DNA of 64,000 nt, taken from the NCBI RefSeq assembly GCF_006345805.1, contig NW_021832860.1, positions 32,401 through 96,400 of the forward strand, in the 5' to 3' direction. Origin of the DNA: Octopus sinensis (taxonomy: Eukaryota). Shown piece by piece: positions 19,601 to 64,000 of the stretch. Within the stretch, counting starts at the first letter, position 1; the number at the start of each line of letters is the position of its first letter. The position numbers were made by a program, and so were the translations under genes. Under the pieces are notes generated by a model. The model was not told the origin of the DNA. It did not search any database and saw only the letters and a list, made by a program, of their open reading frames with translations.

Positions 19601-19807
19601 ATATATATATATATATATATATATATATATATATATATATATCGTGACGCATATTTGCCATTTGAATATGGCTAACCCCATAGGGTGGATGCTACTGTAG
19701 TTTGTAGCCCCAGGAAGATACCTCCTCCAGCTGGCTATAGACACACTATCTGTGCCCTATCAGTATTTGTGAAGGGAAGTCATCCTTCTCGTCTTCAACT
19801 TATGATA

Positions 19808-19852
19808 CACACGGACTCGAGTTTCAAGGTGTTTACCTATCATCAGCGTGTG
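19808..19852 (-). ncRNA. type I hammerhead ribozyme (inverted copy)
   Basis: Exact reverse complement of 19958-20002. Confidence 0.85.
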
Positions 19853-19957
19853 ACAGTCATAGTTGTCGACGAGAATTCAGTTTCCCTCACAAATACATAT
19901 ACTTTTTCCAGTGTCGATTGTGAGGGAAACTGAATTCTCGTCGACAACTGTGATTGT

Positions 19958-20002
19958 CACACGCTGATGATAGGTAAACACCTTGAAACTCGAGTCCGTG
20001 TG
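19958..20002 (+). ncRNA. minimal type I hammerhead ribozyme
   Basis: cacacg CTGATGA t aggt aaac acct t GAAA ctcgag TC cgtgtg: 6-bp stem I, 4-bp stem II, palindromic stem III ACTCGAGT, GUC cleavage site. Confidence 0.88.
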
Positions 20003-20280
20003 TATCATAAGTTGAAGACGGGAAGGATGACTTCCCTTCACAAATACTGATAGGGCGCAGATAGTGTGTCTATAGCCAGCTAGAGGAGGTATCTTCCTGA
20101 GGCTACAAACTACAGTAGCATCCACCCTTAGGGGTTAGCCATATTCAAATGGCAAATATGCGTCACGATGTGTTACCGCTACTGTTTATAACTCGCTCTG
20201 AGATTTATCATTGCTTGATTTCACTTTTTCAATATCAGTGTCAATCGACACTGGAAAAAGTATATGTATTTGTGAGGGAA

Positions 20281-20998
20281 ACCGAACTTTTAGAAATAGC
20301 AGCCAAAAAATTTTAGCTACTTCCTCTACTATAAGAAAAGTCTCCCAGACAATGTTTTAAATATACCGTAAATAGTCTTTTTACTTACTGAACACTACTT
20401 GGTAAAATTGATAATTAACAATTAATTAATTTTACCCTTTTATTATTGACAAAATAATTCTTTCTCCCTGATAATAAACTACAGATCCCTCTGTAGGGAC
20501 TTGTTGCTCTATAACTCACGTGGGTGGACGAGGGAGGTTACAGAGTCTCATTCGTACTTTTTGAATTCGTTAATACTAGCGGTCGAAGATGGTTTGTCTG
20601 GGATTACTCATATCAGACGGGTATGTTCGATTTTTAGTGCTCTCAAACCTTGGGCTGATGACGGAAATGTTGATCTCTATATCCAACTAATCCAGAAACG
20701 GCGTTCTCAAGTAATCGATGTACGCGTGATCTTTCGTTATTTTTGCCTCTATACCTACGTGAATTATTTTTGAGTATACATTGTCTGGGAGACTTTTCTT
20801 ATACTAGAGGAAATAGCTAAACTTTTTTGGCTGTTATTTCTAAAAGTTCGGTGTGTGGTAAAGTAAATTATTTCACTGAACCCTAATTATATAACGTAAA
20901 GTTTTAAATATACCGTAAATGGTCTTTTTACATACTGAACACTACTTGGTAAAATTGATAATTAATAATTAATTAATTTTACCCTTTTATTATTGACT
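20281..20998 (+). mobile_element. hammerhead-bearing unit E2: 547-nt monomer, ~97-nt terminal direct repeat, inverted 5' segment
   Basis: 20354-20450 repeats at 20901-20998; ~20281-20355 is the reverse complement of ~20779-20853; 3' end runs into (TA)n. Confidence 0.75.
20649..20711 (+). ncRNA. type I hammerhead ribozyme
   Basis: cttggg CTGATGA c gga aat gttg...caac taa tcc a GAAA cggcg TT ctcaag: stem I 6 bp with one G-U, GUU site. Confidence 0.75.
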
Positions 20999-21116
20999 AT
21001 ATATATATATATATATATATATATATATATATATATATATATATATATATATATATATATATATATTCTGCGTTCTGCGTGTATGTATAAATATAATCAT
21101 TTATTTCGCTCAGTAT

Positions 21117-21176
21117 GTTTAGCTGATGAAGGAAAAGTTTTCATTTAACTAGACTAGAAATTGATCGTTCCTAAAC
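21117..21176 (+). ncRNA. degenerate hammerhead-like motif (E3)
   Basis: gtttag CTGATGA...GAAA ttgatcgt TC ctaaac: stem I perfect, stems II and III imperfect; unit lies between (TA)n tracts. Confidence 0.4.
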
Positions 21177-60140: not shown

Positions 60141-60156
60141 TATATATATATATATA

Positions 60157-60900
60157 TAGGGTGGGTGAATGAAAGTAAATCATGTTTAGGCGTAAGCACC
60201 GGTGGCATCAACAAGTTTCCTCAAACGGCCAGGGATGGAATGAACAACCTTCTGAAGGACGTCATCTGGGATATCATTGAGAACCTCCTGAATCCGTGTC
60301 CCCAAGTCGTCCAGTGTGCGAGGTTTTGTCTTGAACACATCCTCTTTTGTGTATCCCAACAGGTAAAAATCCCATGGAGTGAGATCTAGACTTCTTGGAT
60401 TTCTAGACTTCTGCGGTCACAGTCTTTAAACTTTAGCTCCTACACGTAATGGGGTATCCACGGACGAAAATTCAATTCTTTATGCAACACCGTACGTGTT
60501 GTGTGTCTTGTTAGTCCACTCTCACGAGCTGTTTCACCTGTTGATTTTTGTTGGCTGCGATTGAAAATTTTTCGGCAATGTTGCTAATTTATCGGCTGAT
60601 CGAGATGTCGTTGGAGAGCTACTTCTTGCTTCGTTCACAGAACCCGTAGTCATCAGCTTTGCATGAGAACTTCTTATTGTCTCCGGACGTAGTGTTGAAT
60701 GCTTACCTTTCCATTCACGCGACCATCGCTGAACCAAAACAATGGAATTCCACACTTCATAGCATGCTACTATCTTAGCTTGTCCCTGAACAGTAAAACG
60801 ACCGGCCATCTGGAAAACAAGAAATAAGAAAGAAGACTATAAGAAGATCAGAAATTCCCATTAGTATTGTCTGTTTAAAAAGTGCTTTCGTCATGACAGC
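60157..60900 (-). mobile_element. internally deleted Tc1/IS630-like transposon (DUF4817-type N-terminal HTH)
   Basis: N-terminus ...IVLVQR...TTGSVNE..; C-terminus DLTPWDFYLLGYTKEDVFKTKPRTLDDL...RLRKLVDATGAYA*. The catalytic middle is missing; one end lies in (TA)n. Confidence 0.8.
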
Positions 60901-60949
60901 TGTGATACTCAAAGTTTTATAAGCCATTTCTAATGCTTAATTACTTACC

Positions 60950-61430
60950 TATTTCTTTATTACCCACAAGGGGCTAAACACAGAGGGGACAAACAAGGAC
61001 AGACAAATGGATTAAGTCGATTATATCGACCCCAGTGCGTAACTGGTACTTAATTTATCGACCCCGAAAGGATGAAAGGCAAAGTCGACCTCGGCGGAAT
61101 TTGAACTCACAACGTAACGCAGGCGAAATACCGCTAAGCATTTCGCCCGACGTGCTAACGTTTCTGCCAGCTCTCCGCCATTTTACCACCCACTCTGTAT
61201 ATGTATGTATACATGTATCTGTTTGTGTGTCTGTGTTTGTTCCCCCCCTAGTCACCATCGCCTGACAACCTATGTTGGTGTCTTTACGTCCCCGTAACTT
61301 AGCGGTTGCGCTAAATAGACTGATAGAATAAGTACTAGGTTTACAAAGAACAAGTCTAGGGGACGATTTGTTCGACTATGGGCGGTGCTCCAGCATGGCC
61401 GCACTCAAAATGACTGCAACAAGTAAAAGA
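60950..61430. mobile_element. SINE A (60950-61179, -) and SINE B 3' half (+)
   Basis: Family motifs present. Confidence 0.8.
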
Positions 61431-63629
61431 ATATATATACGTATGTGTATATATATATATATATATATATATATATGTAAAAAAATACAAACTGGGACAA
61501 GAACGCAAATCATTTAGGAGACGATACAAAAAACACGGACGGGACATTCGAAGCGTTCAATCTTCAGTCAAGAACCGGATCATCCTCGCAATTTCGGCTG
61601 ATTAATCTTGAGATTGCTCCGATCTGGCCAGCCCCAACGGAAAATCTAAGCCAAGCGAATGTATACAAAACAAGGACGGAAAAACGGATGATGTTACACG
61701 AATAAGAATACGAAAATACGTAAAAGCAATAATGATAATAATAATAAGAAAAACAGAACGTTACAGACAGGCGTCTTTCGACAGGACGAGTAAATTTTGA
61801 GCTGGCGTGTTAGAAATATAGATAGATAGATAGATAGATAGATAGATAGATAGATAGATAGATAGATAGATAGATAGATAGATAGATAGATAGATAGACA
61901 GATAGGTAGAAAGATAGATAGATAGATAGATAGATAGATAGATAGATAGATAGATAGATAGATAGATAGATAGATAGATAGATACATAGATAGATAGATA
62001 CATAGGAGTAGAAGTGGGTATATGGTAATTAGCTTGCTTACCAACCACATGGCTCTGGGTTCAGTCCTACTGCAAGGCACCTTGGGCCAGAGTCTTCTAC
62101 TATAGCCTCAGGCCAGCCAAAGCCTTTTGAGTGGCCTTCGTAGACGGAAACTGAAAGAAGCCCGTCGTGTATATATATATATATATATGTATGTGTGTGT
62201 GTGCATATGTACAGTGCATGTGTTTCTATGTGTTTATTCGTGTATGCATCGTATGTGTGTGCATGAGTATGTGAATGCGCGCCCGCGTGTATGTGTGATA
62301 TGCAAGTCATTGTTTGTTATATAGTATAAAGTACTGGCACAATGTAAAGGTTGGTGGAGCGGAAAAGAGAAAGATGTATGGAGAACATTCTCTGTATAGT
62401 GATATAAACACATACACACACACACACATGTTCATACATGCATACATACATAGTTGCTAACATACATACACACGCGCGTCTATGCATATACATACATATA
62501 TATATATATATACACACACACACACATATATATATATATACATCTGTATATGTGTGTATATGCATATATGTATATTTGTATGAACAGGTGCGTGCACACA
62601 CACACGCATAAATACAGAGAGAGAGAGAGAGAGAGAGAGAAGGAGAGAGAGGAGAGAGAGATTTGAAAAGAGAGAGAGATCGTGAGAGAGTAAGTGTGAA
62701 AGAAATCATAAAAAAAGATTGTTTTGCCCAAATAGGAGCGATAACAATAACCACTAGGTATTTTATAGAACAAGAAGTGTCGATTAATTATTCTTTAATC
62801 AATGGATCAATCATTCATTTAATATCTTAGTCTTTCATTCCATTCTCTTGACCTGTATTGATTTATCACTTTCTATTATTTTTTTCTTTTCGGAGGTTTT
62901 TTTCTCTCTCTTTTTGGTATTTTTTTCTTTATCTTTTCTGCTTCGATCGACACTTTTGTTTCATGTTCAGAAGCAATCACACGCACAAATACACGGATAT
63001 TTTATTTCGCAAGCTAGCTAGTTTCCGACTCCCACTCTCTCTCTCTCTCTCTCGCTTTCTCCACACACATGCACATTCTCACACACACTCCACACTCACA
63101 CACGCATATATATATGTATGCATGTATGTGTATGTATGTATATATATGTATGTATATATATTTTTTTCTAGTTTCAGCTCAGAGCTGCGGCCATGCTGAT
63201 GCATATATATATACATATATATACACAATATAATAAATATACACATATATATATATACATATACATATATATATATATACATATATATATATACATTATA
63301 TATAACAGATATATACATATATATAATATATAATACAAATATATATATATATATATATATTTACATATATATATATATATATATAATATATATATATATA
63401 TATATATATAATACATATATATAAAAATAATATATATATACATATATATATATATTTATATGTATGCTTATTTATTTAGATATGCATACATACGTGGCAG
63501 CGGATGGTGGTTTCACACTGGTGTGAAGTGCAGTTCAGCGAAAACGGTGTTCAATATCGTTCGGCCAGATCGATAATAGTTAGAACTGTTCGTGAGAAAA
63601 GACAACCCTGGATCCTATGTTACATAAGA

Positions 63630-63836
63630 CAGAGTTTCTCAGCCCCCTTTTTTGCATATGGACCGCTTTGATTCCCATTTATTTCTATTGGACCTCCGTA
63701 ACCATTCCTTGTTTAAAAAAAAAAACGTCAAACTATTTTGTTTGTGTAGATGTGTAAACAATTATTACCAAAAAGCTTTAACTACAAAATCTTAAAGGAC
63801 ATTCGAGGTCATCTGGACCCCGGTTGAGAACCACTG
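63630..63836. mobile_element. hAT-type MITE
   Basis: Right TIR ggttgagaaccactg (rc cagtggttctcaacc); degenerate left TIR cagagtttctcagcc. Confidence 0.6.
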
Positions 63837-63970
63837 TGCATATGTGCATATATATATATATATATAAAGTTAATCCAAACAAGAAAAAACAAAAACAAAA
63901 AACACAAACAACCGCAAGGACGTGGACAAATAAAGTATTATTGGACGCTCAGGAAAGAAGGGAAGAAGGA

Positions 63971-64000
63971 GGGTTTTACGTTTCGAGCGGAGCTCTTCGT
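63971..64000 (-). ncRNA. minimal hammerhead-like motif truncated by the window edge
   Basis: Minus strand [CTG]ACGA a gagc tcc gctc GAAA cg TA aaaccc. Confidence 0.55.

What the first reader, a model, noticed from the sequence alone, without database searches (positions are those of the whole stretch)
19641..64000. Multiple unrelated hammerhead units share polarity at (TA)n microsatellites
Seen: E1 (minus arm), E2, E3, E4 (minus arm), the 50.3/63.9 kb family and the 61.5 kb unit share no obvious sequence beyond the catalytic core. Yet in each, the ribozyme-sense 3' end joins a (TA)n tract, and E1-E2-E3 are stacked within 1.6 kb. Inference: a community of non-autonomous ribozyme RNAs retroposed by a TA-targeting PLE enzyme, paralleling the TAA/Dong system in the same window.
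Basis: partly seen in the sequence, partly recalled or inferred. Interest (0 to 1): 0.75.

Follow-up and report, generated by a model that had tools for sequence, protein, structure and literature searches.

The report
Ribozyme mini-retroelements docked at TA repeats
Four different small non-coding repeats that carry a hammerhead-ribozyme motif end at TA microsatellites, and two of them are high-copy head-to-tail units of 352 and 547 bases; they are most likely passengers of Penelope-like retrotransposons, a kind of element already known in animals.

Summary
Partly confirmed. E1-E4 carry well-formed type I hammerhead motifs (6-bp helix I; strict scan 4 hits against 0.05 in shuffles), and their ribozyme-sense 3' ends abut (TA)n. 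The 50.3 kb copy is decayed, the 63.9 kb copy is cut by the window edge, and the 61.5 kb unit fails the core. Public contigs from three organism labels show that E1 and E2 are abundant head-to-tail monomers of 352 and 547 nt. E1 has a family-fixed 3' end followed by (TA)n in 17-22 contigs per junction row. That end lies 171 nt (E2: 292 nt) beyond the predicted cut, so the ribozyme does not make it. This fits internal initiation of target-primed reverse transcription, shown in vitro for a Penelope-like enzyme. E1 and E4 are the inverted pairs typical of such elements. This is the known non-LTR retrozyme / non-autonomous Penelope kind; (TA)n preference is published for octopus Naiad elements. 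One shared enzyme is not shown, and no Penelope ORF was found in the window. The open lead is the E1-E2 block: two unrelated units joined by 2-5 nt microhomologies, TA only at the outer ends, possibly one two-template insertion.

The parts
19566..19642 (.). (TA)n tract, left target of the E1-E2 block
19641..19920 (-). E1 inverted arm, 280 nt, 3' end joined to (TA)n at the family-fixed position
   Evidence: loose ends at the equivalent 20166/20169
19808..19852 (-). E1 type I hammerhead motif, predicted cut after 19814, palindromic helix III
19918..20282 (+). E1 direct arm, 1.04 copies of a 352-nt monomer; hammerhead 19958-20002, predicted cut after 19996
   Evidence: (goes-back joints summing to 352)
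20281..20355 (-). 75-nt inverted piece of E2 (copy of 20778-20852); joined to E1 by a 2-nt microhomology, no TA
20351..20997 (+). E2, 1.18 copies of a 547-nt monomer (pseudo-LTR 20351-20450 = 20898-20997); hammerhead 20649-20711, predicted cut after 20705; 3' hairpin just before TA
20998..21066 (.). perfect (TA)34 tract between E2 and E3
21067..21232 (+). E3, 5'-truncated hammerhead unit; motif 21117-21176, predicted cut after 21170, helices II and III degenerate
21233..21311 (.). (TA)n/(TATG)n tract after E3
21312..21361 (+). 50-nt second copy of the E3 3' end (92% alike)
29534..29666 (.). degenerate (TA)n tract left of E4
29667..30112 (-). E4 inverted arm; hammerhead 29699-29792 with long helix II, predicted cut after 29705
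30113..30688 (+). E4 direct arm (hammerhead 30436-30528, cut after 30522) plus a ~120-nt extension 30567-30688 that also ends at (TA)n; centre boundary approximate
30689..30790 (.). (TA)n tract right of E4
50285..50420 (-). 50.3 kb unit: decayed minimal-hammerhead-like remnant ending in an 11-nt TA tract (50285-50295)
61431..61817 (-). 61.5 kb unit beside (TA)n 61431-61476; two partial cores (61567, 61784), neither intact; doubtful member
63848..64000 (-). 63.9 kb unit: minimal-hammerhead 3' half cut by the window edge, ending in (TA)n 63848-63866

Best explanation
E1-E4 are non-coding repeats with type I hammerhead motifs that end at (TA)n, and they are most likely non-autonomous Penelope-like elements (non-LTR retrozymes and pseudo-LTR stumps) copied into TA microsatellites by borrowed Penelope-type enzymes. 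Shown: the motifs, the 352- and 547-nt head-to-tail monomers of E1 and E2, their high abundance, the fixed TA junction of E1, the inverted pairs, the lack of a recognisable ORF. Inferred: a tandem copy is transcribed; paired hammerheads (palindromic helix III) cut the multimer to monomers that may circularise; a PLE RT/GIY-YIG protein nicks (TA)n and starts reverse transcription at a fixed internal site 40-290 nt downstream of the ribozyme cut; copying usually stops early (5' truncation), sometimes exceeds one unit; priming from both nicked strands or a fold-back gives inverted pairs with 3' ends facing outward into TA. The number of enzymes is open; several TA-preferring PLE families are more likely than one.
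For: Motifs above chance. Oriented TA adjacency against two controls. One search, contigs of 4 public runs laid on 19921-20897 (2723/5057/2832/518 pieces): goes-back joints adding to 352 and 547 nt in all four runs; loose ends beginning with TA repeats behind 20166/20169 in 17, 22+19, 18 and 3 contigs with mixed continuation (agreement 0.51-0.69), and no TA row on the 5' side among the 24 of 872 rows shown; E2 depth falls 13x, 26x, 9x and 1.8x just after its junction at 20450 and climbs again towards the 3' end. One contig each in X1 and X2 has an extra C behind 20701, which makes E2 helix III palindromic. Monomers fold as circles at z -5.3 and -4.3; 1 of 25 control windows is lower. Literature: min-HHRs in pLTRs and opposite-strand pairs 100-700 bp apart (PMC4209133); inverted 5'-truncated copy, one-sided tail, (TA)n targets incl. 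Octopus Naiads (PMC8557442); internal initiation, both strands cut and extended, ribozyme not needed (PMC11167929).
Against: No PLE ORF in 300 of 315 window ORFs and no autonomous partner identified. Rfam recognises none of the motifs. MFE folds of the single motifs are unremarkable except E4 minus. No TA loose-end row for E2 at 20450 among the 24 rows shown, so its family-wide junction rests on summed contig depth, which the tool calls a poor measure. E3, E4 and the three distal units were not tested in other copies. The E4 extension (~120 nt) is longer than the published 30-40 nt tail. No locus in the window has two consecutive complete hammerheads in tandem. The enzyme studied in vitro preferred ATT, not (TA)n.
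Confidence: 0.8

Rival explanations
1. One promiscuous TA-targeting PLE enzyme moves all the unrelated hammerhead RNAs, and E1+E2 arrived in one event.
For: E1 and E2 are joined without TA through 3-, 2- and 4-of-5-nt microhomologies, with family-fixed TA ends facing outward. Internal duplicates are similarly diverged (8 of 293 vs 9 of 175, Fisher p 0.21). The E1 direct arm holds 72 nt absent from the inverted arm, so it is no simple fold-back. 7 of 8 ends are pyrimidine-rich in the last 25 nt (0.64-0.76; E1 0.44; no null computed). The PAc enzyme extends both strands and is a predicted dimer.
Against: Two ordinary inverted insertions side by side in TA, followed by one microhomology deletion, give the same layout. 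No shared 3' sequence or structure: a clear hairpin only in E2 (z -3.2), weaker in E4 plus (-1.9), none in six others. Many PLE families are reported active in octopus.
Confidence: 0.3
2. E3, E4 and the distal units are simply 5'-truncated ends of autonomous hammerhead-bearing PLEs (for example Neptune type), each moved by its own enzyme, not a separate non-autonomous class.
For: No head-to-tail monomer was shown for them; 5' truncation to a single terminal repeat is the commonest PLE product (bioRxiv 10.64898/2026.07.22.740005, discussion passage). Compatible with the best explanation for E1/E2.
Against: About 330 nt upstream of the E4 core give no Pfam match (ORF 30153-30473); E1 and E2 close on themselves at 352 and 547 nt with no room for an ORF.
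Confidence: 0.4
3. The units are satellites spread by recombination or a non-PLE LINE (such as the R4/Dong-type element in the window), and TA tracts grew at or were picked up by their ends afterwards.
For: 36 merged TA tracts in 64 kb; many unrelated repeats here also touch TA; an RT remnant at 35910-36527.
Against: A fixed internal junction in many contigs with different flanks, inverted pairs and partial tandems are PLE traits; the LINE-like 3' units in the window end in (TAA)n, not (TA)n.
Confidence: 0.08
4. Chance: motif-like strings next to abundant TA.
Confidence: 0.02

Closest known systems
Metazoan non-LTR retrozymes (Cervera & de la Pena 2020, PMC7229834; passages and the discussion read; Li, Clavereau & Pollet 2026 preprint, first fifth and passages read)
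   Same: Non-coding head-to-tail monomers with a type I hammerhead, low GC (E1 0.42, E2 0.35), size like the mussel 350-390 nt units (E1 352), proposed mobilisation by PLEs.
   Different: Here the copies are 1.0-1.2 units, inverted, and anchored at a fixed internal point to (TA)n; the word 'microsatellite' does not occur in the 2020 main text and occurs once, in another sense, in the preprint. Circular RNA and cleavage are untested here. Supplements of these two papers were not seen.
Minimal hammerheads in pseudo-LTRs of Penelope-like elements (Cervera & de la Pena 2014, PMC4209133; parts 1-2 of 4 read)
   Same: Type I core, extra base before helix II, short palindromic helix III, opposite-strand pairs 100-700 bp apart, many unrelated consensus families per genome.
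   Different: E2 and E4 have much longer helix II inserts (33 and ~60 nt); no linked ORF found.
Microsatellite-targeting EN+ PLEs: Naiad, Neptune, non-autonomous Chlamys (Craig et al. 2021, PMC8557442; passages and supplementary metadata rows)
   Same: (TA)n preference (listed for Naiad_Obim and Naiad_Ovul), partial tandems, inverted 5'-truncated copy, one-sided extension, non-autonomous head-to-tail derivatives.
   Different: Naiads lack canonical hammerheads and are described as long-dead remnants in cephalopods, so they are a poor candidate for the enzyme; five short motifs searched in the supplement text gave 0 hits.
PAc (Poseidon, Anolis) in vitro mechanism (Frangieh et al. 2024, PMC11167929; parts 1-2 of 4 read)
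   Same: Reverse transcription starts at fixed internal sites downstream of the hammerhead; both DNA strands are primed; ribozyme cleavage is not needed.
   Different: PAc is autonomous, prefers ATT and starts in an AC-rich stem-loop; the units here are non-coding and mostly pyrimidine-rich before the junction.

Membership tests
Type I / minimal hammerhead (PLE type) | Core CUGANGA, GAAA, UH in E1-E4 | tested here: met
   E4 plus arm has one extra A or a lost pair after GAAA
Type I / minimal hammerhead (PLE type) | Intact core in the 50.3 and 61.5 kb units | tested here: not met
   decayed first box and no helix I at 50414; GAAT or two core changes at 61567/61784
Type I / minimal hammerhead (PLE type) | Intact core in the 63.9 kb unit | tested here: inconclusive
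   cut by the window edge; helix II 4 bp and GAAA-CG-TA present
Type I / minimal hammerhead (PLE type) | Helix I of 4-6 bp and a helix II | tested here: met
   6-bp helix I in all six E1-E4 cores; helix II clear in E1, E2, E4, weak in E3
Type I / minimal hammerhead (PLE type) | Short palindromic helix III (dimer cleavage) | tested here: inconclusive
   perfect in E1; one base short in E2 (an inserted C seen in 2 contigs); one mismatch in E4; degenerate in E3
Type I / minimal hammerhead (PLE type) | Self-cleavage | not testable with these tools
   needs in vitro transcription
Non-LTR retrozyme | Short head-to-tail monomer bearing the hammerhead (E1, E2) | tested here: met
   352 and 547 nt joints in 4 of 4 runs; in-window repeats
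Non-LTR retrozyme | Head-to-tail monomer for E3, E4 and distal units | not tested
   the single read-laying run covered only E1/E2
Non-LTR retrozyme | Non-coding, GC under 45% | tested here: met
   no Pfam match in overlapping ORFs; GC 0.42 and 0.35
Non-LTR retrozyme | Two consecutive complete hammerheads in tandem at the locus ('active' copy in the 2026 preprint) | tested here: not met
   window copies hold 1.04 and 1.18 monomers; these copies are likely dead ends of the family
Non-LTR retrozyme | Circular RNA in vivo | not testable with these tools
   only assembled contigs were offered; no holder on record as RNA
Penelope-like element insertion | Partial tandem (pseudo-LTR) and adjacent inverted 5'-truncated copy | tested here: met
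   E2 direct plus inverted piece, E1 and E4 inverted pairs
Penelope-like element insertion | 30-40 nt tail at one end | tested here: inconclusive
   E4 has a one-sided extension but of ~120 nt; E1 depth stays high ~50 nt past its junction
Penelope-like element insertion | RT plus GIY-YIG ORF (autonomous element) | tested here: not met
   none in 300 of 315 window ORFs of 55 aa or more
Penelope-like element insertion | Termini shared with an autonomous PLE of the same genome | not testable with these tools
   no genome held for this window

The most novel reading that the evidence does not exclude
The 19641-20997 block is a single insertion in which one dimeric Penelope-type enzyme nicked both strands of a (TA)n tract, primed one strand on the E1 RNA and the other on the unrelated E2 RNA, and jumped between them by microhomology. 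That would be direct genomic evidence that a sequence-blind PLE enzyme serves a community of unrelated circular ribozyme RNAs and fuses them into hybrids.
Probability: 0.22. Interest if true: 0.72.

Novelty: new member of a known kind. Interest (0 to 1): 0.42.

Why it matters
How animal retrozymes get back into DNA is proposed but untested. These copies give three testable handles: the target ((TA)n), the exact internal start points (E1 at 20166-20169, E2 at 20450/20997, well away from the ribozyme cut), and over-unit-length copies that need a multimeric or circular template. They link retrozymes to the internal-initiation mechanism shown for an autonomous PLE. If E1+E2 is one event, cross-family mobilisation would be shown. 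Otherwise this is a good annotation of known element kinds in a repeat-rich genome.

Tried and rejected
Rfam: 0 at gathering, only microsatellite-driven miRNA-type hits in the rows shown at E<=10. An E1 pattern found 0 matches in metagenome contigs and genome contigs, as expected for animal DNA. No RNA holder listed on record; X11 is only guessed to be RNA, so its joints and flatter E2 profile are not used as evidence of expression. A depth step of 3-6x near the E1 cut site could mean 5' ends at the cut, but E2 is not monotonic there and contig depth cannot place ends: not used. A shared 3' hairpin as enzyme signal: 1 clear and 1 weak of 8 ends, rejected as general. The idea that the ribozyme cut makes the TA-joined end: rejected (distances 171, 292, 62, about 40 and 166 nt). 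Motif search in the Craig 2021 supplement: 0 hits. ARAGORN found no tRNA. Searches of earlier scan notes by place and by sequence were empty. Paper searches for prior description: hammerhead+Penelope+microsatellite (8 listed), hammerhead/octopus/retrozyme (25 of 97 listed), octopus+Penelope+Neptune, retrozyme+microsatellite (5 listed), Penelope-like+template switch+chimeric+hammerhead (1); none of the passages read describes TA-anchored retrozymes in a cephalopod or two-family co-insertion, but Arkhipova 2006 and Lunse 2017 (recalled) and Repbase were not seen. PMC12602865 had nothing relevant.

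
Full report
Setting. The window is repeat-rich animal DNA with 114 tandem-repeat rows, many dispersed short repeats, RT remnants at 35910-36527 and DNA-transposase remnants. That it is an octopus-type genome is my recall of the repeat families, not a tool result; the runs that hold E1/E2 carry four coded organism labels. No whole genome was held.

The motifs. Of 26 CTGANGA sites on both strands, six have a 6-bp helix I closing on GAAA..TH: E1 (19846-, 19964+), E2 (20655+), E3 (21123+), E4 (29786-, 30442+). A strict descriptor gave 4 hits against a shuffle mean of 0.05, maximum 2 in 100; it was written after seeing E1, so the figure is generous. 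Rfam finds none. Helix III is a short palindrome in E1, nearly so in E2 and E4, degenerate in E3, the pattern described for dimer-cleaving PLE hammerheads (PMC4209133). The distal units are weaker: 50.3 kb is decayed, 63.9 kb is cut off by the window end but has a clean helix II and second box, and 61.5 kb has two partial cores, neither intact. Units are unrelated outside the core except E3/E4 (helix I) and 50.3/63.9 (76% over 54 nt).

TA adjacency. Five of the six good cores have (TA)5+ within 350 nt downstream, against 18% of random oriented positions and 2 of 20 other CTGANGA sites (p about 1e-3). The arms are not independent, TA tracts cluster, the E1 plus arm is an exception and E3 has TA on both sides. 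The better evidence is junction precision. E1, E2 and E4 each have a second copy in the window that runs on in unique sequence exactly where the first enters TA. Laying contigs of four public runs on 19921-20897 showed loose ends made of TA repeats behind 20166/20169 in 17 (X1), 22+19 (X2), 18 (X3) and 3 (X11) contigs, with unlike continuations; of the 24 rows shown (848 hidden) five are of this kind and none puts TA on the 5' side. For E2 no such row was shown, but summed depth falls 13-, 26-, 9- and 1.8-fold right after 20450, the position equal to its TA junction, and rises again towards the 3' end, as 5' truncation from a fixed end would give. The tool warns that summed contig depth is no copy number.

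What E1 and E2 are. The same call shows goes-back joints that add to 352 nt (E1) and 547 nt (E2) in all four runs, matching the periods in the window. Both are non-coding, 42% and 35% GC, and fold as circles at z -5.3 and -4.3, lower than 24 of 25 control windows. These are the marks of non-LTR retrozymes (PMC7229834). The window copies hold 1.04 and 1.18 monomers, which needs a multimeric or circular template (inference). The TA-joined end lies 171 nt (E1), 292 (E2), 62 (E3), about 40 (E4 minus) and 166 (E4 plus) beyond the predicted cut. The ribozyme therefore does not make the inserted end. This agrees with the in vitro finding that a PLE enzyme starts reverse transcription at fixed internal sites downstream of the hammerhead, primes both strands and does not need cleavage (PMC11167929).

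Architecture. E1 is an inverted pair too (244 of 252 alike; both arms share 10 of 13 listed positions where other copies differ, so they come from one subfamily). Inverted 5'-truncated copies and one-sided tails are standard for PLE insertions (PMC8557442; PMC3846280 passages). The block 19641-20997 reads TA, E1 reversed 280 nt, E1 forward 365 nt, E2 reversed 75 nt, E2 forward 647 nt, TA, with 3-, 2- and 4-of-5-nt microhomologies at the inner joints. Either one event used both RNAs, or two neighbouring insertions lost their shared TA by a later deletion. Similar divergence (8 of 293, 9 of 175; p 0.21) fits both. I give co-insertion about one in four.

Mechanism, most likely (0.8). Non-autonomous PLE-type RNAs are copied by target-primed reverse transcription into (TA)n by RT/GIY-YIG proteins supplied in trans. 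Shown: motifs, monomers, abundance, E1 junction, inverted anatomy. Inferred: transcription, dimer cleavage, circles, the enzyme. The enzyme is unidentified: none in 300 of 315 window ORFs. Octopus Naiads are listed with a (TA)n preference but lack canonical hammerheads and are called remnants; a hammerhead-bearing Neptune type is my guess. With 31 recently active Penelope-like families reported in O. vulgaris, one enzyme for all is less likely than several. E3, E4 and the distal units may be plain truncated ends of autonomous PLEs; that was not tested. The Dong-like (TAA)n units (35192-35396, 38666-38870, 58962-59166; the label is recalled) share only the habit of microsatellite targeting.

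Novelty. Retrozymes as PLE passengers, hammerheads in pLTRs, opposite-strand pairs and (TA)n-targeting PLEs are all published. In the searches run I did not see TA-anchored retrozymes mapped to fixed internal start points in a cephalopod, nor two-family co-insertion; supplements of most papers, Repbase and closed-access papers were not seen. Earlier scan notes report similar microsatellite-anchored units in other genomes (unchecked), which suggests the pattern is common. Verdict: new members of a known kind; interest 0.42, with one open lead worth a genome-wide test.

Noticed in passing
window 30627-30647 and 20132-20148: The E4 extension and the E1 3' region share a 15-of-16 nt match shortly before their TA junctions; seen by eye, marginal, could be a shared enzyme signal or chance.
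   Followed up: no
window 20948-20983 and 30642-30672: AT-rich hairpins 14-17 nt before the TA junction in E2 (z -3.2) and the E4 extension (z -1.9), each followed by a T-rich linker.
   Followed up: partly
window 20741-20750 (loose ends): Some E2 relatives have a different sequence upstream of this point (median loose length up to 157 nt): other subfamilies or a possible autonomous partner sharing the 3' part.
   Followed up: no
window 50200-50284 (-): A tRNA-like stretch (by eye; ARAGORN finds none) lies directly across the short TA tract from the 50.3 kb unit.
   Followed up: no
window 21480-23120: A tandem duplication of about 800 nt (21480-22300 and 22300-23120) next to E3.
   Followed up: no
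window 35192-35396, 38666-38870, 58962-59166, 25983-26311, 14045-14539, 52278-52856, 35910-36527: Fragments of a LINE with RT (Pfam RVT_1) and endonuclease-like peptides, repeatedly joined to (TAA)n; looks like R4/Dong (recalled label).
   Followed up: partly
window 1-267 and 40503-40679: DNA transposase remnants (Pfam DDE_3; HTH_Tnp_Tc5).
   Followed up: no
window 61745-61790 (-): Second hammerhead-like pattern in the 61.5 kb unit with a perfect 4-bp helix II but two core changes; either decayed or a core variant.
   Followed up: partly
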